Shown: positions 8,610 through 43,165, counted from the first letter of the stretch. The stretch: 64,000 nucleotides of DNA from Dehalococcoidia bacterium (GCA_965207225.1 CBDBLV010000005.1:416001-480000), one strand, 5' to 3'. Notes: a model not told the origin generated them from the letters alone. Translations and numbers: made by a program.

Positions 8610-10346
8610 CTATCTTGGAACCTTCACATGGACTGTCACGATATCCAGGCCATGGTATTTCCTATGGCGCAATGTGGACGCGTAGTGGCGCAGCAACCTG
8701 TATGAAATCTCTCGACTGTCCAGCAGATCCGGTGTTTCTAACGTATACGCCAGATGGTCTTCCAGATTCTCCGCGCTAGCCCCGGAAACGAACTCCAGCT
8801 CTGCCAGCCCTTCCTTAATCTGGGCGCTGATCGTCAGCCGCCGTTGCTCTACCCTTTCCTTGCTGTCAAGGTCGTCCGACAGCAAGTTCGTGAGGACCTC
8901 CTCTCCTACAAGTACAAGCCTGCCGCTTGAGGTAGTGTCCCAATTCGCCCTCAAGGCGATTTCGTTCAAGAACTCAGTCAACTTGGGCAGTTCTTTCACG
9001 TCGAGGGCGATTGTCAGCCTTTTGCTTCGAAGGCCGGTTGACTCGAGGAACAAAACCATGATCACTGCCAAAAGAGCGCCTGAAGTCACTCCGTTTCCTA
9101 ACAGTGCGCCTAAGAAACCCTCTCCGAGGAGATCCGGGAAGATCCATCCGTTTTGCAGGCCCACACCAATCCAGAAGGAAAGCCCTACAACCACCGCTTT
9201 CTTATGATCTATTCCGTCGTTCGCTACGATCCTTATACCCTGAACGAACAGCATTCCCAGGAGAAGGGTCATATAGGCGGCGGCTACCGGGGTAGGGATG
9301 GCTATCAGGAGTGCCGTTACTTTCGGCAGAAATGCAACAGTTGCAAATATTAATCCTATTGCGAGTCCCACACGCCGGGCACCGATTCCCGTTATCTCGG
9401 CAAGGGAAACACTCGTGGAGTAGGTTGTGGTCGGCAGAGTTCCGGCAAACCCCGAGAGCAGGTTGCCCACTCCGTCGGCGTTTATGGCTCCCTGTACGAC
9501 CCGGTAGTCCGTTGCCCGGCTGCTTCTACGCGATACAGCCTGAATAGCCACTCCTGCGCCAATGGTGTCAATGGAGCCCACCATGGTCACGATCAAGAAT
9601 GCTGGGAGGAGTGCCCAAAACTGGGTGCCCGGGGTGTAGTCCAGACCCGGCCAGGACCCAAATGGAACTCCCACCCATGGAGCATCGATTATCAGGTCTA
9701 GGTCATACGATCCGAACACCGCGAATACCACGCAACCAACTCCTATGCCAAACAGCAGCGACCAGATTCGACATGAAGGCGGGGCTCGCAGTTGGAGTGC
9801 GATTACAGACAAGAGCGTAGCCGAAACGGCTGCCGCGGCGCCTGCAGTGGGTACGTTGTCGGGCACCTCGGTGAATGCGTCGAACATCACAGGGAATATG
9901 GACGCTGAGATTAGCATCATTACAGAACCCGAGACGACAGGAGTGAATATTCGACGGAGCATCGGCAGCCGATATGCCATGGTGAAGTTCAACAAGGACG
10001 AGACCAGGACCAGGCTTGCCATTGTTGCCGGCCCGGCTTCCAGTAGAGCCGCAACGCAAACGGAGATGAAAGCTCCTGAGGAGCCCATGATCAGCACATG
10101 ACCCGCGCCCACACGTCCAACGCGAATAGCTTGCAATACAGTCGCAATACCGCTGATTAGCAGGGCTGCGAAGACAACCCAGGAGATGTAGCCGTCGGGC
10201 TGATCGGCAACCCGTGCAGCTATCACGACAGTGAAGACTATCCGAGATACCATCACCGCCGCGCCCTGGACCCCTGCGCCCAGGGTGACTAAAGGGGGAG
10301 GGATCTCGTTAGGCTCGTGACGAATATTTTCGTTGGCTTGCGCCAA
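8610..10346 (-). CDS. NCS2/xanthine-uracil permease-like protein with C-terminal RsbW/HATPase-like extension (paralog 1)
   Basis: 578 aa, multi-TM; NCS2-like motifs (ATVLQA..GAG, FTPVVSG, ADGVGNLLSG, ITG..ARRV, LLGMLFVQG); TTG start with AAGGAG RBS; C-terminal GEEVLTNL...SYRLLRHYASTLRHRKYHGLDIVTV. Confidence 0.88.
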   Translation of the reverse strand: MAQANENIRHEPNEIPPPLVTLGAGVQGAAVMVSRIVFTVVIAARVADQPDGYISWVVFAALLISGIATVLQAIRVGRVGAGHVLIMGSSGAFISVCVAALLEAGPATMASLVLVSSLLNFTMAYRLPMLRRIFTPVVSGSVMMLISASIFPVMFDAFTEVPDNVPTAGAAAAVSATLLSVIALQLRAPPSCRIWSLLFGIGVGCVVFAVFGSYDLDLIIDAPWVGVPFGSWPGLDYTPGTQFWALLPAFLIVTMVGSIDTIGAGVAIQAVSRRSSRATDYRVVQGAINADGVGNLLSGFAGTLPTTTYSTSVSLAEITGIGARRVGLAIGLIFATVAFLPKVTALLIAIPTPVAAAYMTLLLGMLFVQGIRIVANDGIDHKKAVVVGLSFWIGVGLQNGWIFPDLLGEGFLGALLGNGVTSGALLAVIMVLFLESTGLRSKRLTIALDVKELPKLTEFLNEIALRANWDTTSSGRLVLVGEEVLTNLLSDDLDSKERVEQRRLTISAQIKEGLAELEFVSGASAENLEDHLAYTLETPDLLDSREISYRLLRHYASTLRHRKYHGLDIVTVHVKVPR

Positions 10347-10846
10347 GCTCCTTTAGAAGGGCTTCGCTCTTGTCGGGTCCTCTAACCTGGTAACAACGGT
10401 ATAGTTGCCTGACACGAGGAGAGCCTGTGGACGGTGAGTTTGCAGCATCGAAGTTAGGTCTTGTTGTGGCTTGCCAGGCCGGCTTCTTGAATCGTCTGCT
10501 TGCATTTGCATTTAGAAGTCTTGGAAATGCAGACTCGAGCTGTCTACTGCCAAACGTCCTAATTCATGGGGGCGTTTGCTATACCTATGTAGGGGTACAG
10601 ATGCATTCAAATGGGGCGCATTGGCGCATCCGCTCCCATTTCTGGAATAAGCGCTACCAAGCCCCATATGCGGAAGCCATCACTACCAAAGAGTGGCAAT
10701 TACTTCGCCTGTTTCTAGTCTGTAGGTCCACAGATGGGTACGATTGCTACATACGTGAGTGGCATTTGCTCCTTGCAGACATGCGCCCTTGTGGCTAGAT
10801 TGCTTTTGACTGAGGCACATGTCCGCACAGGAATATCGAAAGCGCC

Positions 10847-12130: not shown

Positions 12131-12143
12131 GAGGATAATCGGA

Positions 12144-13310: not shown

Positions 13311-16094
13311 TTACGGACTTTCCACGACGTCCGTGACCCTGACGGTCACTCTTATCGTACTCGCCGCTCCGTGGCTGTCGGTGGCCGCTGCGGTCAGTGT
13401 ATAGATTGTGGTCGTCTCAAAGTCCAGCACGCCCGCCACCGACAACTCCCCGCTTACGGAGTTCATCTGGAACTTCCCGCCTTCGTTCCCCGCCGTTATG
13501 GAATAGGTGAGTGCGCTCAGGTCTATGGCCTCCGCATATATGGTCCCAACCACATCACCCACCGACGCATCCTCAGCCACCCTGAATGTGTATGAGTTAA
13601 CGTAGAATGTCGGGGCACAACTCACCATGTCCTGGAATTCGGCGGTGTGAAAGTCGTTGTTGGGGGTCCCTAGCAGCCCTACGGGAATACATCCACCAAA
13701 GGAGTTCCCTGACAGGGCCACGTGAGTCAGGTTAAGCCGGCTCAGGCTCCTGGGCATACTGCCAGTCAATCGATTGTCCCTGAGCAGCAGTTGCTCAAGG
13801 CTCCCCATGTTGCCCAGTTCCGAGGGAATGCTGCCACTGAGGTCATTGTCGTTAAGGGCAAGTACCCTCAACGCGTTCAGATTGCCCAACTCTTCCGGTA
13901 TCTCCCCGCTCATCCGGTTGTCCTCAAGGTACAGCACCTGGAGCCTGCTGAGGTTACCCAACTCCTCAGGTATCCCTCCACTGAGCTGGTTCCCAAACAG
14001 GTACAGGTGGGTCAGTTGAGAGAGTCTACCCAACTCCGCAGGTATGCCGCCCGTGAGGTCGTTCTCGTCCAGGTCGATCCTGCTCAGCCCGCTCAACTCC
14101 CCAAGTTCGGTGGGTATGCTCCCGTTCAACCCCACGTCCGTCAGCCTCAGCATCCGCACCCGAGACGGGGTCCCATACACCCTGATGCCTTCCCAACTGC
14201 TTATGGCCGTTTCTCCATCCCAATCAATACTCCCGCTGCCGCTCAGCGTTCCCCTAGATCCGTACAGGTTTAAGCAGTCCTCCACCAGCCCCGGGTTGTC
14301 CGCGGGACTCGGCACAACCACCCCATTCCTGCATATCGACGTTACCGTTATTGTCACTGTTGCCTCGGCAGTCGCCCCACTGCTGTCCCGTACCTCTACC
14401 GTTAAGGTGTGAGCGGGCGTCGATGCGTAGCTCAACTCTCCAGCCACCGTTATCTGGCCCGTGCTCGACCCTACCGAGAACCCCCCTGATTCGTTGCCCG
14501 CAGTTATGGAATACGCCAAAGTGTCCCCTGCGTCCGGGTCTGTCGCCGATACGGTGCCCACTACCTCTCCTGTATCCTCGTCCTCTTCTACACTGAAGGC
14601 GTAGGACGAGGACACGAATGCCGGGGGCAGATTGCACGTGCCTGTCGTCAGCATCACAACCTCGGACCACAGCCCCGCCCTCTCGTTGTAGGTCGACCCG
14701 TCTCCATATGCCCCAATCCTGAACTCGTGGCCGCTCTCGCACAATAGGTCGGCCGCAGAGTATGTCGTTCCCGTGGCAGAATCGTCCAAGGTAGTCCAGT
14801 TCGTGTTTACGCTTATCCGGTTCTGCACGTGATATCCCGTGGCGTCGGTCACGGCGTCCCAAGACAGCTCGGCTCCAGTGTTGCCCGAGAGCGTCGCTGT
14901 CAGGCCGGCAGGCGCCGGCGCATACACCGCAGGCGGCTGGGAGGGCGTGAAGGTGTCCGTAGAGCCGTCATCTGGCGTGATGTCATCATATGCACCGATG
15001 TCCCGGTAGTACTGGTTCAACCCGCTCACATTCCCTATCCGGTCATCAGCGTAGGCATCGCTGGCCGCCGCCGTTGTGATCCGGCTCCTCAGGTTGGCCA
15101 GGGTCTGCGTATGCTCGGGGTCTCCCTCTGCCACACCGTACCTTACCGCCTGCACCACCCCCTGATCATCAAGTTGAAGATCCCACTGCTCTATTACCTG
15201 CCATGCCTCTATCGCTATAGTGTTGTGAGCTCCCATCGGCGCTAGGAACAATACGCTCTCTCGAGATTCGAATATGGTATCCAACACCATCTCTACGGTG
15301 GTTGCAATCTCTTCGAGATATGCCCCGTATTCCTCCTCGCTGAACAGAACCTCTTCTCCGAACTCTCCCTGTTCATGGGCAAGCTTGTAAAGATCGTAGG
15401 ACCGGGCCTCTCCCCGTCGGTCATAGGCAACCGTCAAGCTCTCAGTGTTTGTGATTGTTGGACCCAACAGATATTCGGATACCGTATAGTCCACATAGCA
15501 ACCCAGGAACATATAGTCTTCCGTCAACCCTCCCATCGCGAGAGACCGGAAGTTCGCTTTCACCGTCTCGGGATATATAGAATTGATTCGTTCGAGCTCT
15601 GCGTCGAACCGTCCTGCTATTACGGTCGGGGAGGGCAAAGGTGTAGGCTCTTCTATCTCCAGCCAAAATCGTATGGCTTCCTCTCGTTGGGCGAGACTCC
15701 TGGCAATCCCCCGCCACTGACATCGTACGCTGTCGCTGTCTGATGTTCCCCTGACCACGAGGTGTGCAGGTGATGCCCCAGCCAAAACCAACCCTGACTC
15801 CAGTACGTCCTCCACCGTGGCAGCAGGCTGAGGTTCAAAGGCAGCTCCCTGAGCAGCAGGCGGAGTAAACAGATCGATAGCAGTTACGTCTCTGGGTGTA
15901 CAATCAGCATCAAGGCCCTCGCAAGGCGACCAAATAGGCTCTTCCACAGATGTCGTTTCGGCTGGCGAGGCAATTTCCACAGATCCCACACCTGAGTCAC
16001 AGGCTAGAGAAATGGCAAGGGCAATTGCGAAGGGCGCAATCATCACGCTAGCCAGTACCCATGACCTCCGAGACTTGAAAATTCTCTTGATCAT
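13311..16094 (-). CDS. Putative lipoprotein: unknown N-terminal domain, FN3, cadherin, LRR, cadherin
   Basis: 927 aa; lipobox-like ISLAC; cadherin motifs (PAFVSSSYAFSVEED, ATDPD, LDFETTTIYTL); 24-aa LRRs of the LxLxxNxLxGxIPxELG type. Confidence 0.88.
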   Translation of the reverse strand: MIKRIFKSRRSWVLASVMIAPFAIALAISLACDSGVGSVEIASPAETTSVEEPIWSPCEGLDADCTPRDVTAIDLFTPPAAQGAAFEPQPAATVEDVLESGLVLAGASPAHLVVRGTSDSDSVRCQWRGIARSLAQREEAIRFWLEIEEPTPLPSPTVIAGRFDAELERINSIYPETVKANFRSLAMGGLTEDYMFLGCYVDYTVSEYLLGPTITNTESLTVAYDRRGEARSYDLYKLAHEQGEFGEEVLFSEEEYGAYLEEIATTVEMVLDTIFESRESVLFLAPMGAHNTIAIEAWQVIEQWDLQLDDQGVVQAVRYGVAEGDPEHTQTLANLRSRITTAAASDAYADDRIGNVSGLNQYYRDIGAYDDITPDDGSTDTFTPSQPPAVYAPAPAGLTATLSGNTGAELSWDAVTDATGYHVQNRISVNTNWTTLDDSATGTTYSAADLLCESGHEFRIGAYGDGSTYNERAGLWSEVVMLTTGTCNLPPAFVSSSYAFSVEEDEDTGEVVGTVSATDPDAGDTLAYSITAGNESGGFSVGSSTGQITVAGELSYASTPAHTLTVEVRDSSGATAEATVTITVTSICRNGVVVPSPADNPGLVEDCLNLYGSRGTLSGSGSIDWDGETAISSWEGIRVYGTPSRVRMLRLTDVGLNGSIPTELGELSGLSRIDLDENDLTGGIPAELGRLSQLTHLYLFGNQLSGGIPEELGNLSRLQVLYLEDNRMSGEIPEELGNLNALRVLALNDNDLSGSIPSELGNMGSLEQLLLRDNRLTGSMPRSLSRLNLTHVALSGNSFGGCIPVGLLGTPNNDFHTAEFQDMVSCAPTFYVNSYTFRVAEDASVGDVVGTIYAEAIDLSALTYSITAGNEGGKFQMNSVSGELSVAGVLDFETTTIYTLTAAATDSHGAASTIRVTVRVTDVVESP

Positions 16095-29448: not shown

Positions 29449-31176
29449 TTGCGCGCAATCGACCAAATACGTTACGAGCCCCATGACAAGTCTCCCGTTC
29501 CCGTAACCCTTGGCGTGGCCGTCCAGGGCAGCGTGCTTGCACTGTCGAACACCGTCACCCTGGTCACCATCTTCGCCGTGGCCTCCGATGGCAGTGCAAC
29601 CTACCTTTCGTGGGCGGTCTTCGCGTCCCTCCTGATCGGTGGGCTGGCGACTGCTCACCAGGCCATCAAGTTCGGGCGCCTGGGCCCGGGCTATATCATG
29701 CTCATGGGCCCCGGGTCTCCCTTCCTGCCGGTCTGCGTGCTAGCCGTTGCCGAGGGTGGACTGCCCGTCATGTCCAGCCTGATAGTCGCCGCTTCCCTAG
29801 TCCAGTTCGCCCTGGCCTTCTGGCTTGCCAAGCTCCGCCGGGTCATTACGCCTGTCGTATCCGGTGTAGCCTTCATGATCATTGCCGTCGCCGCGATGCC
29901 TATAGCCCTCGCCCGACTCGAAGACGTGCCCGCCGACACCCCTTCGCTGGCTGGCCCCGTAGTGGGAGCGGCTACCTTGGCAGCTGCGACAATTCTCATG
30001 CTGCGCGGCTCGGGGGTCTGGCGACTCATGGCTATTCCCATAACCATCGTCGTGGGCTGCATCGTCGCCGTGCCCCTTGGCGTCTATGACTTCCAGCGTG
30101 CCCTTGACGCCCCCTGGTTCGGCCTCCCCGAGTTCTCGGCATGGCCCGGTTTCGGCCCCATCCTTGACCAGGACTTCCTCGCCCTTCTTCTCGTATTCCT
30201 TGTCGTGAGCGTGGTGGTCGGCATCAAGGCCGGGAACGAGGGCGCCGTGATCCAGCAGGCATCCTTTCATAGGCCGCGGGCCATAGACTTTCGCAGCGTC
30301 CAGGGCACATTGAACGCGGGCGGCGTGGGAATCCTGCTGTCGGGCATTGCGGGCACGCTCCCCACCATCATCTACCTCCCTTCGACGATATCCCTGATAC
30401 GTTTCACCGGCGTCGCCTCCCGACGCGTGGGTTATGCCGCCGGGGCAATGTTGATCGGGCTGGCCCTCCTCCCGAAGATTGTCGCTGCCCTCCTTACAAT
30501 CCCCCGACCCGTCACCGGCTCAATCCTGATGATCGTCATGGGGATGCTCTTCGTCGAGGGTGTTCGGACCGTCCTGCAGGACGGATTCAGCCAGCAAAAG
30601 GCCTTTATCGTCGGGATATCCCTGTCAATCGGGGTCGGGTTACAGGCGCAGAACATCCTCGCCGACCCCCTCGGCCCGACATGGGGCGTGGCCTTCGGGA
30701 ACAGCGTCGTCGTCAGCATCCTCGCCGCCGTCCTGATGTCGGGCATAACCCAGTTGACCGGCTACCGCAGCATGCGCCTCCAGACCGAGCTGGACATCGC
30801 ATCCCTCCCGGGTATTCAAGACTTCCTGCGCACTATCGGCGACAGGATAGGATGGAGCCAGGCTTCGATACAGCGCATGTGCTACGCTGGTGAGGAGACT
30901 CTGGCCAGCATGTTGCAGCTCCGCGACGACTACCAGGAAGACAAGCCCCCTCGCCTGGTCGTCATCGCCCGACCCGCGTCTGGTATGGTGGAGATGGAAT
31001 TCCTGGCGGTATTCTCGGAGGAGAACATTGAGGACCGTATCTCGTTCATGACCGAGCAGGCCGAGGCCCCTGACGTCGGCGAAATCTCCTTCCGGCTCCT
31101 CCGCCATCACGCCTCCTCCGTCCGCCACAGGAAGTATCATGGCATCGACATCGTTACCGTGCGGGTGGACGCATAA
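29449..31176 (+). CDS. NCS2-like permease with RsbW/HATPase-like C-terminal domain (paralog 2)
   Basis: 575 aa; IRYEPHD N-terminus, ITPVVSG, FTGVASRRVG, C-terminal SFRLLRHHASSVRHRKYHGIDIVTV. Confidence 0.88.
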   Translation: MRAIDQIRYEPHDKSPVPVTLGVAVQGSVLALSNTVTLVTIFAVASDGSATYLSWAVFASLLIGGLATAHQAIKFGRLGPGYIMLMGPGSPFLPVCVLAVAEGGLPVMSSLIVAASLVQFALAFWLAKLRRVITPVVSGVAFMIIAVAAMPIALARLEDVPADTPSLAGPVVGAATLAAATILMLRGSGVWRLMAIPITIVVGCIVAVPLGVYDFQRALDAPWFGLPEFSAWPGFGPILDQDFLALLLVFLVVSVVVGIKAGNEGAVIQQASFHRPRAIDFRSVQGTLNAGGVGILLSGIAGTLPTIIYLPSTISLIRFTGVASRRVGYAAGAMLIGLALLPKIVAALLTIPRPVTGSILMIVMGMLFVEGVRTVLQDGFSQQKAFIVGISLSIGVGLQAQNILADPLGPTWGVAFGNSVVVSILAAVLMSGITQLTGYRSMRLQTELDIASLPGIQDFLRTIGDRIGWSQASIQRMCYAGEETLASMLQLRDDYQEDKPPRLVVIARPASGMVEMEFLAVFSEENIEDRISFMTEQAEAPDVGEISFRLLRHHASSVRHRKYHGIDIVTVRVDA

Positions 31177-31224: not shown

Positions 31225-31512
31225 GTGAAGGCATATTTGGTCTCCGACAACGAAGTCACCGATCAGGCCCTGTTTGATGAGTTCGCCAGCGGCATCTTCG
31301 ACCTCATCGCGAGCTACGGCGGCAAGTACCTCGTTCGTGGCGGCGACACCCCCCACATCGACGGCCCCCGCACCCCCCACCGCACCGTCATCGTCGAGTT
31401 CGAAAGCATGGATCGGGCCCAGTCCATGACCGACTCCCCCGAATACCACGCCCTCGCCGAAAAACGTTCCCGCAGCAGCAACTCAACCACCTTCCTCGTC
31501 CAGGGAATCTAA
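31225..31512 (+). CDS. DUF1330-family protein
   Basis: 95 aa; YGGKYLVRGG, VIVEFESMDRA, SPEY motifs; AGGAG RBS. Confidence 0.88.
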   Translation: MKAYLVSDNEVTDQALFDEFASGIFDLIASYGGKYLVRGGDTPHIDGPRTPHRTVIVEFESMDRAQSMTDSPEYHALAEKRSRSSNSTTFLVQGI

Positions 31513-32264: not shown

Positions 32265-32284
32265 CCGCTAACGCGCCACTCTCG

Positions 32285-34860: not shown

Positions 34861-34930
34861 GGGGCTTCTGCTTGCACGGAGTGAAATTAGTGCGTTAAAC
34901 ACAGAGTTCCTACCCCCCACCCCCAAGAAA

Positions 34931-36234: not shown

Positions 36235-39200
36235 TTAGTAGTAGTCGATGGCCATTTGCACATACGCAATGGTATAGGCCGCAGGGTCATCAATCCGCTC
36301 GTAGTAACCCGAGGCGAAGAGCAATCCGTCCCGACGCACGGCATAGGAAATCTTGGGGACCTCATTTAGCGTTACAGGGTGGGGCCACAGGTATTCCACC
36401 CAGACTCCTTCCTCGGTGGCCTTGGCAAGTTCCTCGCCCAGCCTGTAGCCGTTTGCCCCTACCACATCGTTGATGTCCGTTCCTACCAGTTGGGGCAGCA
36501 GAGGGTGTACGTGATAGATGTCGTTCTCGTCGGTGGCGAAGAGATACCACTCACCCTCGAAGCTGGCGACGCTGTTGTAGTAGTTGAGCATGGATTCCAG
36601 GCCGTCCCGCTCGTAGCGCTCTATGGCCCGGTTCACGTACTGGACCGTGTATTCCATCGGGTCGGCGTCCCGCCAGGCCGGGGGCCCGGTTTCGGGCTCA
36701 CCGGCGTAGTAACCGGATGCGAATATCAACCCGTCGTGGCGAATGGCCCAGGTGACCTTTTGCTGTTCCTGCCGGGTCTCGGGATGAGGCCACAGGTATT
36801 CCACCCAGACGCCATCCTCGGTGGCCTGGGCTATCTCCCGGCCCAGCTCCTGCCCGTCGGACCCGACCACGTCCTTGATGTCGGTGCCGATGAGATGAGG
36901 GAAGATGGGATGGGCCACGTAGTTGTCATCCTCGCCGATGAGGAACAGGTAGAACTGTCCTTCAACGCTGTCTTGGCTGTTGTAGTGCGCAACGACAGAG
37001 TCGAGGCCCTCGCTATCGTATTTGGCTATGGCCCTGTTCACGTATTCCTTGACGGAGGCCGAAACGTCTGCCACTAGGATCGAGTGGCTGGTGGAGAACA
37101 CCAGGCCATCGTGACTGACGATGAGGACTCTCCGAGGTTCTTCCTGCTTGGTTGCCGGGTTTACGCCCCGGGTATCGACCCAGCTGCCTTCCTCGGTCGC
37201 GGCTTCTATCAACCCACCGAGGCCGGAAAATCTCGAACCCGGGCCAACGTATTGGCCTTGTAGGGCGGGTATGTTGCGGTATACCAGCAGCGTGCTTTCG
37301 GCTTCGTCCAGGAGGATAAGCGTCCGCCCGTTTTCGATGCTCTCCTCAGACCTGTAGAGTTCAACCGTGGCGTCCAGGCCGTTCTCTTCGTAGTACGCAA
37401 TGGCGTCATCGACAAAGGCCCGGCTTAGGTCGTCATCGCTGGGCGCATCGCTGGTGTCGGTGGGTGGCGGCGCGTCTGCGTCACCCTCGACGTAGTACGC
37501 AGAGGAGAAGACATATCCGTCGTGGCGGACAATCCAGAGGTACACCGTCAATTGCCCGGCTGCCCTGGGGTTGGGCCACAAGTACTTGAACCAGTGGCCT
37601 TGCTCGGTGGCGCTGAGCAGCGACTCGCCAATTGGCTCACCGGCCACAACTCCCCGGAACAGGCGAACATCCACTCCAACCAGCGCTTGCTCCGCCCCCG
37701 ATACGACTATGACGTTCTGGGGATTAACCATCAGTAGCCAGTAAGAGCCGTCAATGCTCTCCGGGCTGTTGTAGTGGGCAACCGTTGCCTCTAGGCCCTG
37801 GCTGTCGTAATAGTCCATAGCCTTCTGGACGTAGGCCTGTGTGTAGGCCACCGGGTCCGCGACCCCCGGATAGTAGCCCGACGCGAAGATCATCCCGTCC
37901 CGGCGCACCGCATACCCAACCTTTGGCACTTCCTTAAGCGTTAACGGGTGCGGCCACAGGTATTCGACCCACACGCCTTCTCCCTCCCCGGCCTTCGCCA
38001 GCTCCCTGCCCAACTCGTAGCCGTCGGAGCCCACGATGTCTTTGATGTCCGTGCCTATCAACTGGGGCAGCAGAGGGTGTACGTGATAGATGTCGTTCTC
38101 GTCGGTGGCAAAGAGATACCACTCGCCTTCAAAGCTGGCGACGCTGTTGTAGTAGTTGAGCATGGATTCCAGGCCGTCCCGCTCGTAACGCGCTATCGCC
38201 CGTTCCACGTACTCCATGGTGTACTCGCGCGGGTCAGCGCCCCGCCAGGCGGGCGGCTCCGTCGTCTCGCCCACCGTGTAGTAGCCGGACGCAAAGATGA
38301 GGCCATTGTGGCGGATGGCCCAGGTGGTCTTGGGCTCCTCCAGCCGCGAAATCGGGTTGGGCCACAGGTACTCCACCCAGATGCCTTGTTCAGTGGCCTG
38401 GGCTATCTCCTTGCCCAGTTCCTGCCCGTCGGAACCTACTACGCCCTTGATGTCGGTCCCTATCAGGTGCGGGAAAATGGGATGGGCCAGGTAGTTGTCA
38501 TCCGCGCCAATCAGGAACAGGTAGAAGATTCCCTCCAGGCTGCTGGGGTCGTTGTAGTGCGCAACCGTCGCTTCAAGCCCCTCACTCTCGTATAGGGCTA
38601 TTGCGCGGCTCACGTAATCCTTGGCGGCCTCCGCCACGTTCTCCTGGAGGGTGGAGTGGCCGGATACGAAGATTAGGCCGTCTTTAAGGACAAGGTAGTT
38701 CCGCACCGGGCCCTGTCTGGCTGAGCTGCCGGTGTCCATCTCCACCACATAGATCCCCTGTCCCTCATACCAGGCCCCGTCCTCTGTAGCGGGTCCCACC
38801 AAGAAATCGGCAGATTCGAGCTTGCTTCCCAGGAAATGATGATAGAACGGCATTGCCAGCAGGATGCCTTCATCCTTGCTGATTATGAACAGATACCGGT
38901 CTCCTTCAATGCTCTCTTCGCTCTTGTAATATTCGATCGTCGCGTCCCGGCCGTTGGCGTCGTAGTAGGCGATAGCCTTCTCTACGTAGGCCCGAGTTAA
39001 CTCGTCCGCATTCAACTCACCGGGTTCCGGTTCAGGCTCAGGCTCCGGCGTCGGCTCGGGTTCCGGCACGGGAGTTGCCGTAGGTTCAGGGACCGCCGTC
39101 GGCTCGGGCATTGCCGTAGGTTCAGGGACTGCCGTCGGCTGAGGAGCTGTGGTGGCCGTTGGGTCCGGCGCAGTCGTTGCAGTGGGTGCCTGGGTTGGGG

Positions 39201-39345
39201 CGGGGTCGTCGCCACAGGCAACTGCAATGGCTGCAATGGAAGCCACTATCAGAATCAAGAACAATACACTCGCGCCAATGGATATTGGCCTATGCTTCAA
39301 TGCCGTCCGGTTGGCCCGTATTTTGTTCTCTCGCTCGGTTCGCAA
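36235..39345 (-). CDS. Lipoprotein with tandem single-Cache-like domains and no signalling output domain
   Basis: Lipobox AVAC-GDD; Pro/Thr/Glu linker; repeats YV..AI..Y...G...YLF...HP...L.G..I.D....G..WVEYLWP.P...K......DG.IFASGYY resembling sCache_2. Confidence 0.85.
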   Translation of the reverse strand: MRTERENKIRANRTALKHRPISIGASVLFLILIVASIAAIAVACGDDPAPTQAPTATTAPDPTATTAPQPTAVPEPTAMPEPTAVPEPTATPVPEPEPTPEPEPEPEPGELNADELTRAYVEKAIAYYDANGRDATIEYYKSEESIEGDRYLFIISKDEGILLAMPFYHHFLGSKLESADFLVGPATEDGAWYEGQGIYVVEMDTGSSARQGPVRNYLVLKDGLIFVSGHSTLQENVAEAAKDYVSRAIALYESEGLEATVAHYNDPSSLEGIFYLFLIGADDNYLAHPIFPHLIGTDIKGVVGSDGQELGKEIAQATEQGIWVEYLWPNPISRLEEPKTTWAIRHNGLIFASGYYTVGETTEPPAWRGADPREYTMEYVERAIARYERDGLESMLNYYNSVASFEGEWYLFATDENDIYHVHPLLPQLIGTDIKDIVGSDGYELGRELAKAGEGEGVWVEYLWPHPLTLKEVPKVGYAVRRDGMIFASGYYPGVADPVAYTQAYVQKAMDYYDSQGLEATVAHYNSPESIDGSYWLLMVNPQNVIVVSGAEQALVGVDVRLFRGVVAGEPIGESLLSATEQGHWFKYLWPNPRAAGQLTVYLWIVRHDGYVFSSAYYVEGDADAPPPTDTSDAPSDDDLSRAFVDDAIAYYEENGLDATVELYRSEESIENGRTLILLDEAESTLLVYRNIPALQGQYVGPGSRFSGLGGLIEAATEEGSWVDTRGVNPATKQEEPRRVLIVSHDGLVFSTSHSILVADVSASVKEYVNRAIAKYDSEGLDSVVAHYNSQDSVEGQFYLFLIGEDDNYVAHPIFPHLIGTDIKDVVGSDGQELGREIAQATEDGVWVEYLWPHPETRQEQQKVTWAIRHDGLIFASGYYAGEPETGPPAWRDADPMEYTVQYVNRAIERYERDGLESMLNYYNSVASFEGEWYLFATDENDIYHVHPLLPQLVGTDINDVVGANGYRLGEELAKATEEGVWVEYLWPHPVTLNEVPKISYAVRRDGLLFASGYYERIDDPAAYTIAYVQMAIDYY

Positions 39346-39448: not shown

Positions 39449-41188
39449 ATGTTACGGAAATCTCAGGGCCGACCCGAAATCCAGTACGAACCGGATGAAA
39501 AATGCCCGCCGTTGCTGGCGATAACTTCCGCTCTGCAAATCTTTGTACCCAACACAATCAGCCTTGTCATGCTCTCGGCGCTGGTTGTGCGTGCGTCCGG
39601 GGAATCGGAAGGTTACCTGTCATGGGTGACATTTACCGTGCTTGTAGTCACCGGGGCAAGCATGGTCCTGCAAACCCTCAGGCTGCGCTATTTGGGTTCG
39701 GGCCGTCTGATTGTTGCAAACTTCAACGTTCCGTTCTTGGCGGTCTGCGCTTTGGCGCTCCATGTCGGAGGGCCTGGATTGCTGGCCAGCTTAGTGGTGG
39801 TTTCCACGTTGCTTCAGGCAGTTCTAACCTTGCGCCTTGCCTCTCTTAGGCGAATTTTTACGCAAACGGTGAGCGGCATTGTGATCATGCTGGTGGCAGT
39901 CTCGGCAGTGCCTTTCATAGTCAGTAGAGGTGTCGTCCCGCCGGAAGGTGAATCGACCATGTTTTTCCTGGCTCCAGGAATGGCCGCTCTGGCCGCCGGG
40001 GTCCTTATGTCCCTGAGTGACGCGCCGGCCTCGCGTATGTGGGTTTTGCCGGCCAGCGTAGCCGTCGGTCTGATTGTAGCCGTGCCCCTGGGCCTTTTCG
40101 ATACTGACATAGTAGCTGCTGCTCCTTGGGTGAACCCCCTGCCCGATTACGCGTGGCCGGGTCTGGGTCTGACCTTCAACGCAGACTTCTGGGCCCTTCT
40201 CCCGGTCTTCTTGTTGGTGAATCTCACCGCCTTTATGAAAGTTGTGGGCGATCTGTCCGTTATTCACCGCGCTTCCTACCGTAATCAGTCTGCTATTGAC
40301 TTCCGAACTGTGCAGGGAGGCTTAAACGTCTATGGGGTGGGCACTCTCCTTTCAGGTCTCCTCGGGACCTTGACTGTTGCAGCGCCGTGGTCTGCCACCG
40401 TGGTCTATATCGGCTTCACCGGAGTCGCTGCCAGGACGGTCGGGATATACTTGGGGGTCCTGACCATACTGGTCGCCTTCTTCTCCAAGTTGCTCGCCGT
40501 ATTGGCCTCCATCCCCAGCCCGGTTGTTAGCGCGGTGTACGTCATCATCTTCGGTATGCTTTTTGTCGAGGGAGCCAAGACTGTATTCGGGGCCCAGGTT
40601 GACCGGAAAAAAGCTGCCATCACCGGAGTTTCCATGGTGTTGGGCTTGTCCGCACCGAGCTTCGGCGCACTATTCGAAGGGACAATTGTTCATTTGGTAG
40701 GAAATCCCATTGTGGTCGGCGGTATGGCGGCCATAATCATGACTATATACACCGAAGCATCAAGTTTACGTGCCAAAAAGCTGCGTATTGACCTGTCCCA
40801 GTCTTCGTTGCCTGCCGTTGACGATTTTCTCTGCCAGTTCGCCGACAGACATTCCTGGACTGAGGAAGGGAAAAACCGGCTGCGTCTGGTAGGAGAAGAG
40901 CTCATGCTGAGTTTGATTAATGAAGAGAACGACTCCCCGGTCGACCAGACGCGCACTTTGGTCGCCACAATTCGTCCTGTCAGCGGATCTGCCGAGCTTG
41001 AAATCGTGGTCGCTTCGGACGATGCCATCCAGGGAAATATCGAGAATCAAATTGCATATCTGAGCCAGGACCAGGCGCTGGAAGACGAACAGCAATTGTC
41101 CGTACGAATCCTCCGCCACTACGCATCATCGGTACACCACCGCAAATACTACGGAATAGACATAGTTGATTGTCGTGTGGAGCAATAG
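39449..41188 (+). CDS. NCS2-like permease with RsbW/HATPase-like C-terminal domain (paralog 3)
   Basis: IQYEPDE N-terminus, FTGVAARTVG, GEELMLSL, SVRILRHYASSVHHRKYYGIDIV. ATG 39449 chosen by alignment with paralogs (ORF opens at 39407). Confidence 0.87.
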   Translation: MLRKSQGRPEIQYEPDEKCPPLLAITSALQIFVPNTISLVMLSALVVRASGESEGYLSWVTFTVLVVTGASMVLQTLRLRYLGSGRLIVANFNVPFLAVCALALHVGGPGLLASLVVVSTLLQAVLTLRLASLRRIFTQTVSGIVIMLVAVSAVPFIVSRGVVPPEGESTMFFLAPGMAALAAGVLMSLSDAPASRMWVLPASVAVGLIVAVPLGLFDTDIVAAAPWVNPLPDYAWPGLGLTFNADFWALLPVFLLVNLTAFMKVVGDLSVIHRASYRNQSAIDFRTVQGGLNVYGVGTLLSGLLGTLTVAAPWSATVVYIGFTGVAARTVGIYLGVLTILVAFFSKLLAVLASIPSPVVSAVYVIIFGMLFVEGAKTVFGAQVDRKKAAITGVSMVLGLSAPSFGALFEGTIVHLVGNPIVVGGMAAIIMTIYTEASSLRAKKLRIDLSQSSLPAVDDFLCQFADRHSWTEEGKNRLRLVGEELMLSLINEENDSPVDQTRTLVATIRPVSGSAELEIVVASDDAIQGNIENQIAYLSQDQALEDEQQLSVRILRHYASSVHHRKYYGIDIVDCRVEQ

Positions 41189-41389
41189 CGGGCAGGACTT
41201 GTTAATCCTCCCTCCTATTTCGTAGCCAACGTACCTTAAATGGGCGCATGTGTTTCCCCCGGTAGTGCCAGGAGACCGGTGGTTGTAGCAACCACCTTCC
41301 GGCGCAAGTCACTCCCCATCCATACCGTCGCCTACAACCTCATATGCTAGCCCCCACCCGACTCCCCATCTACTTCTCGCGTGCCGCTT

Positions 41390-43165
41390 TTACCCTTCGG
41401 GCGGCGCTACCCGTACCTCTATCACCTCTATGTCGTGATACTGCCGGTGACTGACCGACGTCGCGTAATGCCGCAGCAATCGTAGTGGCGTGTCCCGACC
41501 TGTCCAACTCTCCAGGTCCACTGAGTCCAGTTCTGCCTCCCCGGGACCCGGAGTAGTCAGCAAGGCGATCCGGTCTTCAACGTTTTCCGAGTTGGCTGAT
41601 GCACTCACGAACTCCATCTCCGCTCCTGCCCCTTGGCTTTTGGCGGTAATCCTCAGCCTCTTTCCTCTTTCCACTCCCTTACCCTGCCCTCCTTCTAACA
41701 GGATGAGAAGCGTTTCTTCCGCTGCTGCGTGAAGCTTCCTAGTCATCGTCGAATCCCAGCCCCTCAGGTCGGAGAACTCTTTAAGGAAGTCCCTAATCCG
41801 CGGCAGCGCCTCCATACTCAATTCCGTCCGTAACCGGCGCTGTACCGCTCCCGTGCCATACTCCGTGAATATCGTAAGCAATACCAGGATCACGCCCCCG
41901 GATATGAATGCCTTCTCGAACACCGCTTCCCAAAGGTTCCCTATCGGCAAACTTACCAGCCCCGTCTGGAAACCCAGCCCCACGACCAGCGCCGTCCCGA
42001 TCACCAGACTCTTCCGAAAGTCCAGGGCGTTCTGGACTACCATCTTCATCCCCTCCACCAGCAGAGGGCTTATCAGGACCACCAGGAAAATCGCGGTTAC
42101 AGGGGGCGGCACCCCGATCAGCAGGCTCCAGGTCTGTGGGAAGAAGGCCACCGCGACCAGGAGGACTCCCGTACCGACCCCAATGTAGCGGGATGCACAG
42201 CCGGTCTGTTGTGCAATCGCCACTCCCCTCGGCCCAGTTGTAACCGGCAGCACTGCCGCGAAGCACGCCACCAGGTTCCCCAGTCCCGAGCATGCAGTCG
42301 TGCCCTGCACCCTCCTGTAATCTATCGCCCGGGACTCCCGCCAGGAGACCCGCTGCGTTGCCATCGCAACCGAGTTTCCCTGCAGCACCGCTATCGCAGA
42401 CAGGAACAGAAATGCCGGAAGCAGCGACCAGAAGGCCGACCCGAACCCGAACCCAAACCCGGGCCACCCGTCCAGCGGCAGCCCCGCGACCGAAGCCTCC
42501 CTCACGGGCCCAAAATCGAAAATCCCGAACCCTATCCCAACGATGGCCCCTGCAACTATGCCTATCAGGGATGCCCAGACCCGCCACACTGCAGACCCCT
42601 TCAGCAGAAGCCCCACTATCACCACGAAGGTGACCAGGATGCACACCGGTCCCGCTGCCGCGGGTGCATCTTCGGGCACGTCGTTCATGCTGCCGAACAC
42701 CACCGGGATGACCGTTATCACCAGGAGGATCAGCACAGCCCCGCTGAAAGCCGGGCGCACCAGCTTCCTCAGCAGGGAAAGGCGCAGGGACATCGCAATC
42801 TGAAACACCCCCGACACCAGTATCAGCGATGCCAGCGTCGGGGCTCCGCCCTCCTCCAGTGCAAGGATGCAAAAGGGTATGGCTGTCGGGGAAGGATATG
42901 CGTTCACCAGCATCCCCGAGCCGAACGGCCCGATACGATAAGCCTGCAGCACGGTCACCGCGCCGGTGATAGTAAGCATGGAGAACACCCCCCATGCCAC
43001 CTCCGCAGCCGAGCCATCTACCGCCTGGACCAGCACGATAGGAAAAACCGCCGCAGGTGCGATGACGAGCAACACTGTCTGGACGCTCAGCCCGACCGTA
43101 ACCGGCAGCGGGGGCCTTTCGTGTGCCTCGTATTGGAGAGTGGAAGTAGCTGGCCTGCTAGCCAT
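41390..43165 (-). CDS. NCS2-like permease with RsbW/HATPase-like C-terminal domain (paralog 4)
   Basis: LQYEAHE N-terminus, QTGCASRYIG, AAEETLL, LRLLRHYATSVSHRQYHDIEVI. ATG 43165 chosen by alignment (ORF opens at 43264). Confidence 0.87.
   Translation of the reverse strand: MASRPATSTLQYEAHERPPLPVTVGLSVQTVLLVIAPAAVFPIVLVQAVDGSAAEVAWGVFSMLTITGAVTVLQAYRIGPFGSGMLVNAYPSPTAIPFCILALEEGGAPTLASLILVSGVFQIAMSLRLSLLRKLVRPAFSGAVLILLVITVIPVVFGSMNDVPEDAPAAAGPVCILVTFVVIVGLLLKGSAVWRVWASLIGIVAGAIVGIGFGIFDFGPVREASVAGLPLDGWPGFGFGFGSAFWSLLPAFLFLSAIAVLQGNSVAMATQRVSWRESRAIDYRRVQGTTACSGLGNLVACFAAVLPVTTGPRGVAIAQQTGCASRYIGVGTGVLLVAVAFFPQTWSLLIGVPPPVTAIFLVVLISPLLVEGMKMVVQNALDFRKSLVIGTALVVGLGFQTGLVSLPIGNLWEAVFEKAFISGGVILVLLTIFTEYGTGAVQRRLRTELSMEALPRIRDFLKEFSDLRGWDSTMTRKLHAAAEETLLILLEGGQGKGVERGKRLRITAKSQGAGAEMEFVSASANSENVEDRIALLTTPGPGEAELDSVDLESWTGRDTPLRLLRHYATSVSHRQYHDIEVIEVRVAPPEG

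What the first reader, a model, noticed from the sequence alone, without database searches (positions are those of the whole stretch)
8610..43165. Four NCS2-fold paralogs fused to a conserved anti-sigma (RsbW/HATPase)-like tail: candidate transceptor family
Seen: four ~580-aa paralogs (8610, 29449, 39449, 41390) each have a ~140-aa C-terminal extension: L..l....LP.l..FL.......W.......l...(G/A)EE.L..l ... a(E/m)lEf.......N.Ed.ia.l ... (S)xRLLRH(Y/H)A(S/T)SVxHR(K/Q)Y(H/Y)GIDIV. Known: ordinary UraA/XanP/PbuX end soon after the last TM. The EExLxN helix and terminal helix/hairpin resemble HATPase_c_2 (RsbW/SpoIIAB), but glycine-rich ATP-lid boxes are absent. The same-fold SulP/SLC26 transporters carry STAS anti-anti-sigma domains, so this would be the mirror-image fusion. 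Inference: transporter-derived receptors signalling by partner switching. Their neighbours are a TCS, an LRR surface protein and a Cache lipoprotein, two of which lack cytoplasmic output domains.
Basis: partly seen in the sequence, partly recalled or inferred. Interest (0 to 1): 0.85.

Follow-up and report, generated by a model that had tools for sequence, protein, structure and literature searches.

The report
Permeases with dead anti-sigma-kinase tails
Four membrane transporters in this window each end in a degenerate copy of an anti-sigma-factor kinase domain that probably cannot bind ATP, and genomes with such transporters almost always also carry one complete switch module of that kinase type, which suggests the switch acts on the transporters rather than on a sigma factor.

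Summary
Four paralogs (six in the genome) are NCS2-fold permeases (PF00860, E 5e-47 to 1.5e-25) with a conserved ~140-aa C-terminal domain.

The tail has the RsbW/SpoIIAB/UsfX fold:
- VIA-align Z is 15-16 against these proteins and 7.6 or less against histidine-kinase ATPase domains.
- Foldseek gives E 1e-7.
- hhalign against Chloroflexota HATPase_c_2 domains gives probability 95.7%.

The tail is degenerate. In 126 non-redundant tails the G1 Asp is kept in 0, the N-box Asn in 6 and the G2 glycines in 0-2. The N-box Glu, which in RsbW contacts the STAS phospho-serine, is kept in 126 of 126.

The canonical nucleobase-binding residues are replaced, so the substrate is unknown.

The only recurrent neighbour is a DUF1330 gene (43 of 70 loci, one clade only), and no STAS or RsbW gene lies within 8 kb in 80 loci.

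However, all 33 tail-bearing genomes among 201 of the class also carry a stand-alone RsbW-type gene, against 19 of 168 without tails. That gene sits in a STAS / REC-PP2C / RsbW module with no sigma factor among the flanking genes scanned. Its kinase shares the tails' double-Glu motif.

Best reading (about 0.4): the tails are docking sites for that STAS protein.

Novelty: a new variant of a known kind.

The parts
8610..10346 (-). Paralog 1 (P0001, 578 aa): NCS2-fold permease with a dead RsbW-like tail
   Evidence: PF00860 E 4.6e-47. It falls in the tree clade without a DUF1330 neighbour. Its ortholog L001 is 92% identical and keeps the divergent histidine-kinase neighbour.
8610..9035 (-). Tail domain of paralog 1 (141 aa)
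   Evidence: AF2 model with pLDDT 75.6. VIA Z 16.1 to UsfX and 15.7 to RsbW. It is the only one of the four with Asn at the N-box Asn position.
29449..31176 (+). Paralog 2 (P0002, 575 aa): NCS2-fold permease with a dead RsbW-like tail
   Evidence: PF00860 E 3e-34. Full-length AF2 model with pLDDT 87.2 and pTM 0.83; tail strand beta1 starts 4 residues after the last TM helix. Foldseek: UraA TMt 0.84, UapA 0.77.
30751..31176 (+). Tail domain of paralog 2
   Evidence: Alignment A2. E482/E483, N526, R549, H553 and H560 are conserved across the family.
31225..31509 (+). DUF1330 gene (about 94 aa) 49 bp downstream of paralog 2 on the same strand
   Evidence: PF07045 E 2.8e-24. The same arrangement is found in 37 of 70 related loci.
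39449..41188 (+). Paralog 3 (P0003): the ORF is open from 39407, the likely start is ATG 39449
   Evidence: PF00860 E 2e-28. It sits on a long branch in the tree. It is convergent with paralog 4, and the same pair is seen in same-genus genomes G192 and G078.
40760..41188 (+). Tail domain of paralog 3
41390..43165 (-). Paralog 4 (P0004): the ORF is open to 43264, the likely start is ATG at 43165
   Evidence: PF00860 E 1.5e-25. Its tail has a 15-residue insertion in the loop before the last helix.
41390..41860 (-). Tail domain of paralog 4

Best explanation
Shown: the four genes (six in the genome) belong to a multi-copy family centred on Chloroflexota. Each member has a 14-TM NCS2/NAT-fold permease core, followed after a 4-residue linker by a RsbW/SpoIIAB-type GHKL domain. 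That domain has lost the ATP-binding Asp/Gly boxes and mostly the Mg-binding Asn, but keeps the N-box Glu in every member. The core lacks the canonical nucleobase-binding residues, so the 'purine/pyrimidine permease' name is not backed and the substrate is unknown.

Inferred: the tail is a pseudo-kinase docking module. The genome's single phosphorylatable STAS protein, when unphosphorylated, binds the tails through the same helix alpha2 face that RsbW uses for RsbV. That STAS is encoded in a STAS / REC-PP2C / RsbW module with no sigma factor among the flanking genes scanned. The tail would hold the STAS serine without being able to phosphorylate it. The true RsbW-type kinase switches STAS off and the REC-PP2C phosphatase, driven by a histidine kinase, switches it on. 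In this way one phospho-switch would gate, or read out, several permease paralogs at once.

Whether the signal flows to the transporter (regulated uptake) or from it (transceptor) is open.
For: Fold:
- Foldseek top hits are UsfX, SpoIIAB and RsbW, with E 1.3e-7 to 9e-5 and TMq 0.63-0.69; 19 hits reach E<=1e-3.
- An independent VIA-align search of 48,161 chains gives UsfX Z 16.1, RsbW 15.7, SpoIIAB 15.3, the Rv1364c RsbW domain 15.2, SiaB 12.0 and LvrC 11.5. The next hits, histidine-kinase CA domains, are at 7.6 or less.

Sequence homology:
- hhalign of 126 non-redundant tails against 31 Chloroflexota HATPase_c_2 domains gives probability 95.7, E 8.9e-9, over 128 columns.

Degeneracy (of 126 tails):
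- G1 Asp 0, N-box Asn 6, G2 Gly 0-2, N-box Glu 126, the preceding Glu 123.

Co-occurrence with the module:
- In 201 class genomes, the tail is present in 33 and PF13581 at E<=1e-12 in 52.
- All 33 tail genomes are among the 52, against 19 of 168 without tails. The nesting holds inside families f49, f54, f61 and f65.
- 49 of 50 genomes behind the related loci have such a gene. In 48 of them a STAS match lies within about 2 kb of it.
- Module content is STAS, REC+SpoIIE and RsbW. None of the 10 flanking genes scanned is a sigma factor.

Shared motif:
- The RsbW-like gene of all 7 tail-bearing genomes in a 61-genome phylum sample has the double-Glu N-box. None of 24 sequences from 23 tail-less genomes has it.
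- In the class sample it is present in 17 of 19 tail-bearing genomes and 3 of 19 tail-less ones.
- In B. subtilis RsbW, Glu49 bonds the phosphorylatable Ser56 of RsbV and Ser48 bonds Tyr53 (PMC7340262, passages).
- By these two residues align with the tail's E483 and E482.

Proximity:
- A tail permease lies 5-6.6 kb from the RsbW gene in G078, G116 and G175 (genus g1), in G146, G199 and G248 (g117), and in G023 (another family).
Against: - No binding was shown or predicted.
- In this genome the module is on another contig (C1:109-111 kb). The nearest tail copy is 80 kb away and none of the four window genes is near it.
- No STAS or RsbW gene lies within 8 kb of the permease in any of 80 related loci. 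Only 1 of 135 immediate neighbours is a SpoIIE phosphatase.
- Co-occurrence is confounded by shared ancestry. The tail-bearing families may form few clades, and 19 tail-less genomes also have RsbW-type genes.
- Two tail-bearing genomes (G080, G117) have only a D-E type, fused kinase. One genome, G282, showed none.
- The residue mapping onto RsbW goes through two low-identity alignments.
- The strongest gene neighbour, DUF1330, has no place in this model.
Confidence: 0.42

Rival explanations
1. The tail is only a structural or dimerising cytoplasmic domain of an ordinary secondary transporter. RsbW-type domains dimerise through alpha1 and beta1, and NCS2 permeases work as dimers. The tail would then play the role the STAS domain plays in SLC26/SulP, with no link to partner switching.
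For: The tail follows TM14 after 4 residues, the same place where SLC26 carries its STAS domain (recalled). RsbW dimerises via alpha1 and beta1 (PMC7340262 passages). UapA needs dimerisation to work (PMC4837479 abstract and passages). No partner-switching genes lie next to the permeases. The neighbourhoods are catabolic: luciferase-like monooxygenase, SDR, P450, amidase and aldo-keto reductase.
Against: It does not explain why the most conserved tail residues are polar (EE, N.ED, R.LRH, H) and map to the former nucleotide and STAS-contact face rather than to beta1/alpha1. It also does not explain the 33 of 33 co-occurrence with a RsbW-type gene or the shared EE motif.
Confidence: 0.25
2. Transceptor. 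Substrate binding or the elevator movement of the permease changes the tail's affinity for STAS. The permeases would then titrate STAS away from the RsbW kinase and pass nutrient information to an unknown RsbW target.
For: The same evidence as for the best explanation. In addition, the binding-site residues diverge among the paralogs, as expected for sensors of different ligands. There are 1-7 copies per genome.
Against: No target of the RsbW kinase is known here. None of the 10 module-flanking genes scanned is a sigma factor. Nothing in the core suggests loss of transport: it is as conserved as the tail. Sequence data cannot give the direction of signalling.
Confidence: 0.15
3. The former ATP pocket has become a small-molecule or metal site, built from Glu, Asp, His and Arg residues. 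It would give allosteric feedback on transport, with no protein partner.
For: Invariant or nearly invariant E482, E483, N526, E528, D529, R549, H553, H560 and Y563 lie in the segments that align with the N, G1 and G2 boxes.
Against: No ligand can be named. No coordinates were available to check that these residues cluster. The retained N-box Glu and the co-occurrence with the module are not explained.
Confidence: 0.1
4. The DUF1330 protein encoded next to most clade-A members is the tail's partner, or is a small regulator of the permease (compare GlnK with AmtB, recalled).
For: A DUF1330 gene is adjacent in 43 of 70 loci. 37 of these are immediately downstream on the same strand, including paralog 2.
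Against: The whole second clade (18 rows, including paralogs 1 and 4) carries the same tail with no adjacent DUF1330. Five of the six copies in this genome have none. DUF1330 could equally be an enzyme that acts on the imported substrate.
Confidence: 0.06

Closest known systems
NAT/NCS2 nucleobase-ascorbate permeases (UraA, UapA, XanQ/PbuX, SVCT1; Pfam PF00860)
   Same: PF00860 is matched above its cut-off. The 14-TM core/gate fold is shared: UraA TMt 0.84, UapA 0.77, SVCT1 0.69. UapA Q85 in TM1 is kept in 48 of 53 members.
   Different: - The family has a 140-aa cytoplasmic tail.
- The UapA Q408 position is S, T or A; none of 53 has Q or E and one has P.
- The N409 position is S in 37 of 53.
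- The F155 position is G in 30 of 53 and never aromatic.
- The E356 position is E in only 24 of 53, and is K, D, K and Q in the window's paralogs.
- Scores fall below the curated TIGR00801 and TIGR03173 cut-offs.
RsbW / SpoIIAB / UsfX anti-sigma serine kinases (Pfam HATPase_c_2, PF13581)
   Same: The fold and element order are shared (Z 15-16). There is profile-profile homology. The N-box Glu is retained in 126 of 126 tails.
   Different: The domain is fused to a membrane transporter. It does not match PF13581 itself. The G1 and G2 boxes are gone and the N-box Asn mostly so, so kinase activity is unlikely. It has family-specific N.ED and RLLRHYASSVRH..YH motifs. No sigma factor partner is known.
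SulP/SLC26 anion transporters with a C-terminal STAS domain
   Same: The 7+7 elevator fold is the same: SLC26Dg and BicA are hit at E 1e-9 to 1e-8. A partner-switching-type domain follows TM14. The genome also has two ordinary SulP-STAS proteins.
   Different: The fused domain is the kinase/anti-sigma half of the switch, not the STAS half. The core is NCS2 and not SulP by sequence.
Partner-switching modules with non-sigma outputs, such as SiaB-SiaC (PDB 6kko, a hit) and the STAS subunit MlaB of the Mla lipid transporter (recalled)
   Same: A STAS / PP2C / RsbW-type kinase set with no sigma factor among the flanking genes scanned. The proposed output is a non-transcriptional protein.
   Different: The proposed output is a catalytically dead copy of the kinase fold built into several transporter paralogs encoded elsewhere in the genome. 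I found no description of this in the searches.

Membership tests
NAT/NCS2 permeases (PF00860) | Match to Pfam PF00860 above the gathering score | tested here: met
   90-161 bits against a cut-off of 27 for all four.
NAT/NCS2 permeases (PF00860) | 14-TM core/gate fold like UraA and UapA | tested here: met
   AF2 model with pLDDT 87.2. Foldseek: UraA E 6e-15 and TMt 0.84; UapA TMt 0.77.
NAT/NCS2 permeases (PF00860) | NAT signature motif in TM10, [Q/E/P]-N-x-G-x4-T-[R/K/G] (motif recalled; the roles of Q408 and N409 come from PMC4837479 passages) | tested here: not met
   At the Q408 position: S 22, T 14, A 6, N 3, R 2, P 1 and V 1 of 53 as listed (the 7 commonest residues). At the N409 position, N in 3 of 53. 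Only the final T-G is kept (48 and 47 of 53).
NAT/NCS2 permeases (PF00860) | Substrate-binding Glu in TM8 (UapA E356) and the aromatic residue in TM3 (F155) | tested here: not met
   E in 24 of 53 family members, but K, D, K and Q in the window's four. The F155 position is never aromatic.
NAT/NCS2 permeases (PF00860) | Curated NCBIfam cut-offs for xanthine permease (TIGR03173) and NCS2 (TIGR00801) | tested here: not met
   113-197 bits against 414, and 93-164 bits against 292. Only P0001 passes NF037981 (42.5 against 40).
RsbW/SpoIIAB-type anti-sigma kinases (HATPase_c_2) | Bergerat/GHKL fold of the RsbW subtype | tested here: met
   Z 15.2-16.1 to UsfX, RsbW, SpoIIAB and Rv1364c, with rmsd 2.2-2.4 A over 103-118 residues. 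Histidine-kinase CA domains reach 7.6 or less. Foldseek E 1.3e-7.
RsbW/SpoIIAB-type anti-sigma kinases (HATPase_c_2) | Match to Pfam PF13581 | tested here: not met
   No Pfam family at E<=10 except a sub-threshold DUF222 hit. The PF13581 search of the genome does not list the tails at E<=1e-3. Profile-profile homology is nevertheless significant.
RsbW/SpoIIAB-type anti-sigma kinases (HATPase_c_2) | ATP-binding boxes: N-box Asn, G1 DxGxG, G2 GxG | tested here: not met
   Asn in 6 of 126, G1 Asp in 0 of 126, G2 Gly in 0-2 of 126.
RsbW/SpoIIAB-type anti-sigma kinases (HATPase_c_2) | N-box Glu that contacts the STAS phospho-serine (RsbW Glu49; PMC7340262 passages) | tested here: met
   126 of 126 tails. 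The alignment path is.
RsbW/SpoIIAB-type anti-sigma kinases (HATPase_c_2) | Binds a sigma factor and a STAS antagonist | not testable with these tools
   Needs binding assays.
Partner-switching system | STAS protein with a phosphorylatable Ser, a PP2C phosphatase and a RsbW-type kinase in the genome | tested here: met
   In G000 contig C1: STAS 132 aa (with an ...YISSAGLR... segment), REC+SpoIIE 386 aa, and RsbW-like 139 aa with intact N, G1 and G2 boxes.
Partner-switching system | Genes of the switch encoded together with the candidate output | tested here: not met
   None in the window and none within 8 kb in 80 loci. The distance is 80 kb or more in this genome. A permease lies within 5-6.6 kb of the kinase gene in only 7 genomes of 3 genera.
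Partner-switching system | Co-occurrence of the candidate output with the switch | tested here: met
   33 of 33 against 19 of 168 genomes. 49 of 50 genomes. 7 of 7 with an EE-type kinase. Not corrected for phylogeny.

The most novel reading that the evidence does not exclude
A sigma-less partner-switching module (histidine kinase, REC-PP2C, STAS, RsbW-type kinase) uses catalytically dead copies of its own kinase fold as its output. These copies are welded to a family of permeases. Unphosphorylated STAS is captured by the tails' retained Glu-Glu face, so one phospho-switch sets the activity of up to seven nutrient permeases at once. Alternatively, the permeases report their transport state by titrating STAS.
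Probability: 0.4. Interest if true: 0.85.

Novelty: new variant of a known kind. Interest (0 to 1): 0.72.

Why it matters
Partner switching is textbook biology for sigma factors, yet many STAS / PP2C / RsbW modules have no known output. A transporter family that carries a dead copy of the kinase as a built-in docking domain would give these modules a direct, post-translational output. It would also be the mirror image of the SulP-STAS fusion, whose STAS function is still debated.

The idea is directly testable with two small soluble proteins: the 140-aa tail and the 132-aa STAS.

The finding also shows that several hundred proteins named 'purine/pyrimidine permease' lack the nucleobase-binding residues and should not be used to infer purine uptake in these uncultured Chloroflexota.

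Tried and rejected
- Pfam and PDB sequence searches of the tails found nothing usable. One search gave only a sub-threshold DUF222 hit; one search gave 0 hits at E<=10.
- Complex prediction of the paralog-2 tail with its DUF1330 neighbour gave no verdict (score 0.00, controls not run). This says nothing either way. It used the only complex job, so the more relevant tail-STAS pair and the tail homodimer could not be folded.
- I looked for other architectures of the tail. The best 150 of 666 representatives are all about 580-aa permeases or fragments of them. P0180 and P0214 look like frameshifted calls. P0139 (144 aa) could be a stand-alone form but was not followed up. Hits beyond the best 150 were not visible.
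- I looked for a riboswitch upstream as a hint to the substrate. There is none in the window or in 5 loci at gathering thresholds.
- Neighbourhood survey. My greedy ORF caller found no permease ORF in 8 of 80 loci (L016, L018, L020, L026, L050, L065, L066, L076). 5 of 140 immediate neighbours longer than 700 aa were dropped, and 135 were scanned. Only the 25 commonest of 85 families were shown. The second-neighbour list was never scanned.
- The local STAS model was built from 20 closely related STAS proteins, so divergent STAS domains could have been missed.
- TCS, LRR and Cache as family-wide partners were rejected on the counts.
- The ESM Atlas feature search gave HATPase_c_2-containing clusters at 0.92. 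This is only a lead.
- Literature searches for the fusion returned nothing relevant: NCS2 + anti-sigma + C-terminal gave 0 papers; nucleobase + transporter + RsbW gave 6 unrelated papers; Xan_ur_permease + HATPase_c_2 gave 0. DUF1330 is only mentioned in passing in 10 papers (listing only).
- Expression data (look-up of sequencing runs, read laying) were not tried.

Full report
**1. The observation**

The window holds four ORFs at the stated places. Their translations all match Pfam PF00860 (Xan_ur_permease) over about residues 24-400, with E 4.6e-47, 3e-34, 2e-28 and 1.5e-25. They are 34-43% identical to the first.

Each runs about 140 residues past the last membrane helix.

The whole genome has six copies of the tail, four of them in this window.

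**2. The tail is a real, conserved domain**

- 576 proteins in the 5.8-billion-protein set match the tail at E<=1e-3. The best 120 all carry PF00860. The few that are named are called 'purine/pyrimidine permease' or 'hypothetical protein' of Chloroflexi/Chloroflexota.
- An exhaustive profile search finds 666 representatives at 50% identity, 430 of them at E<=1e-10.
- Among the best 150, the tail always sits at the C-terminus of an about 580-aa protein or of an obvious fragment.
- Across 53 full-length members the tail is as conserved as the membrane core: mean pairwise identity 0.454 against 0.458.
- Three of the seven invariant columns of the whole protein lie in the tail: E482, E483 and H560 in paralog-2 numbering.

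**3. Fold of the tail**

Pfam and PDB sequence searches were blank.

An AF2 model from the four-sequence alignment has pLDDT 75.6 and pTM 0.71. Its element order is beta-alpha-alpha-beta-beta-alpha-(loop)-alpha-beta-beta.

- Foldseek against the PDB puts the anti-sigma factors UsfX, SpoIIAB and RsbW first, with E 1.3e-7 to 9e-5 and TMq 0.63-0.69.
- A search that does not depend on Foldseek gave: UsfX Z 16.1, RsbW 15.7, SpoIIAB 15.3, the RsbW domain of Rv1364c 15.2, SiaB 12.0 and LvrC 11.5.
- After those there is a gap. Histidine-kinase ATPase domains reach 7.6 or less.

The tail therefore belongs to the RsbW subtype of the GHKL fold, not merely to GHKL ATPases in general.

Sequence agrees. I built a profile of 126 non-redundant tails and compared it with 31 HATPase_c_2 domains taken from Chloroflexota genomes (loci, alignment). 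hhalign gave probability 95.7%, E 8.9e-9, over 128 aligned columns. The ESM Atlas feature search also lands on HATPase_c_2-containing clusters, but this is only a lead.

**4. The tail is degenerate**

In the hhalign register, counted over 126 tails:

| Position | Kept in tails |
|---|---|
| G1-box Asp | 0 of 126 (A, S or V instead) |
| G2-box glycines | 0-2 of 126 (E/D, I/V/L, L/F instead) |
| N-box Asn | 6 of 126 (paralog 1 is one of them) |
| N-box Glu | 126 of 126 |
| Residue before the N-box Glu is also Glu | 123 of 126 |

ATP binding and kinase activity are therefore unlikely. This is an inference from motifs, not an assay.

New family-specific motifs (N.ED after beta3, RLLRHYASSVRH..YH in the last helix and hairpin) occupy the segments that form the G1 and G2 boxes in real kinases. 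I had no model coordinates, so I could not check that these residues cluster in space.

**5. The membrane core**

A full-length AF2 model of paralog 2 from a 53-sequence alignment has pLDDT 87.2 and pTM 0.83. The first tail strand (residues 442-447) begins four residues after the last TM helix (419-437). The model superposes on UraA (TMt 0.84), UapA (0.77) and SVCT1; SLC26 and BicA come further down the list.

The HMMER alignment to UapA, read together with passages of PMC4837479, shows the binding site is not canonical. In UapA, Q408 binds N1-H and C2=O of xanthine, E356 binds N7-H, and F155 helps coordinate the substrate. In the family (53 members):

| UapA residue | Residue in the family |
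|---|---|
| Q408 | S 22, T 14, A 6; never Q or E |
| N409 | S in 37 |
| F155 | G in 30; never aromatic |
| E356 | E in 24; K, D, K and Q in the four window paralogs |

The proteins also fall well below the curated NCBIfam cut-offs for xanthine permease and NCS2. The substrate is therefore unknown and probably not a canonical nucleobase. The paralogs differ from one another at these positions. No riboswitch was found upstream.

**6. Distribution**

- In one genome per species, 387 stretches encode relatives. The best 80 are mostly Dehalococcoidia/Chloroflexota MAGs. By record title there are also single Acidimicrobiia, Alphaproteobacteria, Gemmatimonadetes, Latescibacterota and Immundisolibacterales MAGs.
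- In a sample of 201 genomes of the class, 33 have the tail, with 1-7 copies each. They are concentrated in a few families: f1 8 of 9, f4 10 of 10, f49 4 of 9, f54 3 of 7.
- In a 61-genome phylum sample, 7 have it. That tally includes, as a negative, one genome (G038) flagged as unpublished.

**7. Neighbourhoods**

I clustered the ORFs of the 80 loci and scanned 135 immediate-neighbour ORFs from 72 loci against Pfam.

- The only recurrent neighbour is DUF1330: 26 of 135 ORFs, an undercount because wrong-strand ORFs were often picked.
- Nothing else occurs more than 3 times.
- SpoIIE occurs once, and a histidine kinase only in L001, the ortholog of paralog 1.

A dedicated DUF1330 profile finds the gene in 52 of 80 loci. 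Among the 70 loci with a full permease ORF it is:

- immediately downstream on the same strand in 37;
- immediately upstream on the same strand in 4;
- convergent in 2;
- distant in 3;
- absent in 24.

In the window it lies at 31225-31509, right after paralog 2.

On a FastTree of 74 permeases, the DUF1330 link belongs to one clade (43 of 54 rows, including paralog 2). It is absent from the other clade (0 of 18 adjacent, including paralogs 1 and 4). Paralog 3 sits on a long branch. DUF1330 is uncharacterised: its solved relatives 2fiu and 3lo3 are 'hypothetical', and the literature only mentions it in passing (listing).

Cache-domain proteins lie within 8 kb in 6 of 80 loci. LRR+Cache proteins occur in 5 loci.

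Local profiles of STAS (20 Chloroflexota sequences) and of RsbW found neither within 8 kb of the permease in any of the 80 loci, nor in the window.

**8. The link to partner switching**

Notes from earlier runs of this scan described similar dead-RsbW tails on transporters next to STAS/PP2C/kinase genes in other genomes. I treated these as leads and tested the idea genome-wide here.

The module in this genome:

- There is one canonical HATPase_c_2 gene (C1:111050-111424). There are stand-alone STAS genes at C1:109432 and C5:309172, plus two SulP-STAS transporters.
- The C1 genes form a module: STAS (132 aa), REC+SpoIIE PP2C phosphatase (386 aa), and a RsbW-like kinase (139 aa) with intact N, G1 and G2 boxes.
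- The module is flanked by an MMPL transporter, an MpaB-like oxygenase, Alpha-E, an ammonium transporter and an ATP-grasp gene. None of the scanned neighbours is a sigma factor.

Co-occurrence:

- In the same 201 class genomes, PF13581 at E<=1e-12 occurs in 52.
- All 33 tail-bearing genomes are among them, against 19 of the 168 without tails.
- The nesting repeats inside families: f49 tail 4, kinase 7 of 9; f54 3 and 4 of 7; f61 and f65 likewise. The one f1 genome without the tail (G242, 80% complete) also lacks the kinase.
- Of 50 genomes holding related loci, including the non-Chloroflexota ones, 49 have such a gene and all 50 have STAS. In 48 a STAS match lies within about 2 kb of the kinase gene (coordinates). 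The exceptions are G282 and G293.

Proximity:

- The kinase gene lies 5-6 kb from a tail permease in G078, G116 and G175 (the window's genus) and in G146, G199 and G248 (another genus).
- The fetched regions show the same module with a permease two or three genes away. In the second genus there is also a HAMP histidine kinase and a periplasmic binding protein.
- In G023, from a third family, the distance is 6.6 kb.
- In the window's own genome the nearest copy is 80 kb from the module.

**9. A shared motif on the STAS-contact helix**

- In the phylum sample, the RsbW-like gene of all 7 tail-bearing genomes has a double-Glu N-box, [R/K]xxLxxEE[L/I]..N. None of 24 sequences from 23 tail-less genomes has it; they read DE, SE, GE, AE, NE or RE.
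- In the class sample the double Glu is present in 17 of 19 tail-bearing genomes examined. The two exceptions, G080 and G117, have a 684-aa fused DE form.
- It is present in 3 of 19 tail-less genomes. 19 of the 33 tail-bearing genomes were sampled there; G000 and G045 were covered.
- The tails carry the same double Glu in 123 of 126.

Passages of PMC7340262 state that in the RsbV-RsbW complex:

- Glu49 of RsbW bonds Ser56 of RsbV, the residue that gets phosphorylated;
- Lys44 and Ser48 bond Tyr53;
- Asp42 bonds Arg84/Arg87;
- RsbW dimerises through alpha1 and beta1.

I aligned this genome's kinase to the 6m36 chain. That chain has 141 residues, so I took residue number as chain index plus 4. 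With that offset the paper's Arg23, Asp42, Lys44, Ser48 and Glu49 fall on R, D, K, S and E. Carrying this through the hhalign register places the tail's E483 on Glu49, E482 on Ser48 and the conserved R476 on Asp42.

This is a two-step mapping at low identity and should be read as an inference.

The tail profile does not score EE-type kinases better than other kinases. The shared motif is therefore not simply recent common descent.

**10. Reading**

What is shown:

- an NCS2-fold permease family of unknown substrate;
- a fused, degenerate RsbW-type domain that keeps the STAS-serine-contacting Glu;
- multi-copy expansion;
- strict genomic co-occurrence with a STAS / REC-PP2C / RsbW module that has no sigma factor among the flanking genes scanned.

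What is inferred: unphosphorylated STAS docks on the tails, so the module gates the permeases or the permeases titrate STAS.

Against this:

- there is no binding evidence;
- there is no adjacency in this genome or in the 80 loci;
- the co-occurrence is not corrected for phylogeny;
- DUF1330 is unexplained.

I put the docking model at about 0.4, a purely structural or dimerising role at 0.25, the transceptor direction at 0.15, a small-molecule site at 0.1 and a DUF1330 partnership at 0.06.

**11. Novelty**

Pfam (2025 copy), NCBIfam and the PDB have no model for the tail. Three full-text searches found no description of the fusion.

Partner switching with non-sigma outputs is known. A dead kinase domain built into transporters as the presumed output is a new variant of that kind.

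Noticed in passing
window 31225-31509 (+); loci L002-L080: A DUF1330 gene (about 95 aa, dimeric alpha/beta-barrel family of unknown function) sits immediately next to the permease in 43 of 70 related loci. This holds in only one of the two main clades. Its role (enzyme acting on the imported substrate, or regulator) is unexplained.
   Followed up: partly
window 36235-39345 (-), 35896-36234 (-); L132:11613-13487 (-): Large proteins made of repeated sCache_2 domains, with no other Pfam domain, lie next to permease copies. One has four-fold sCache_2 (7 domain hits in my local search) and lies beside paralog 3. A collagen-repeat plus sCache_2 protein lies directly upstream, on the same strand, of the genome's C1 copy. 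This recurs in only 6 of 80 loci, mostly close relatives.
   Followed up: partly
window 2-7858 (-), 13311-16094 (-), 16251-17522 (-), 17519-25366 (-), 26135-29359 (+): A cluster of very large surface-type proteins: a 2615-aa protein with 14 fibronectin type III hits, a second ORF of more than 2600 aa running off the window, two LRR+cadherin proteins and a PD40 beta-propeller protein. They are eukaryote-like repeat proteins interleaved with the permease paralogs.
   Followed up: no
window 45973-47535 (-) and 47866-49428 (-): Two 520-aa DDE_Tnp_1_4 transposase ORFs with identical Pfam scores lie in tandem, apparently two copies of one insertion sequence. They sit just beyond the paralog 3/4 pair.
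   Followed up: no
window 62672-62766 (-): A selenocysteine tRNA gene (Rfam RF01852, 66.4 bits).
   Followed up: no
window 32941-34860 (+), 34850-35782 (+): An AAA_21 + DUF4435 protein (an ATPase type common in defence-like systems) overlaps by 11 bases with a TauD-family dioxygenase gene.
   Followed up: no
window 43414-44478 (+), 44491-45042 (+): A luciferase-like monooxygenase lies divergent from paralog 4, followed by a dual-specificity protein phosphatase (PTP-SAK/DSPc) gene.
   Followed up: no
L133 (G000:C1:103000-117000): The genome's STAS / REC-PP2C / RsbW module is flanked by an MMPL transporter and an MpaB-like oxygenase on one side. On the other side are Alpha-E, an ammonium transporter and a circularly permuted ATP-grasp gene. 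In three same-genus genomes a tail permease follows the ATP-grasp gene; in this genome that position holds a 303-aa ORF instead.
   Followed up: partly
G023:C1:783541-783960; G010:C1:1594784-1595242; G226:C1:2776360-2776644: Some tail copies in other genomes contain an in-frame stop (TAG or TAA) or are short fragments. This suggests ongoing gain and decay of paralogs.
   Followed up: no
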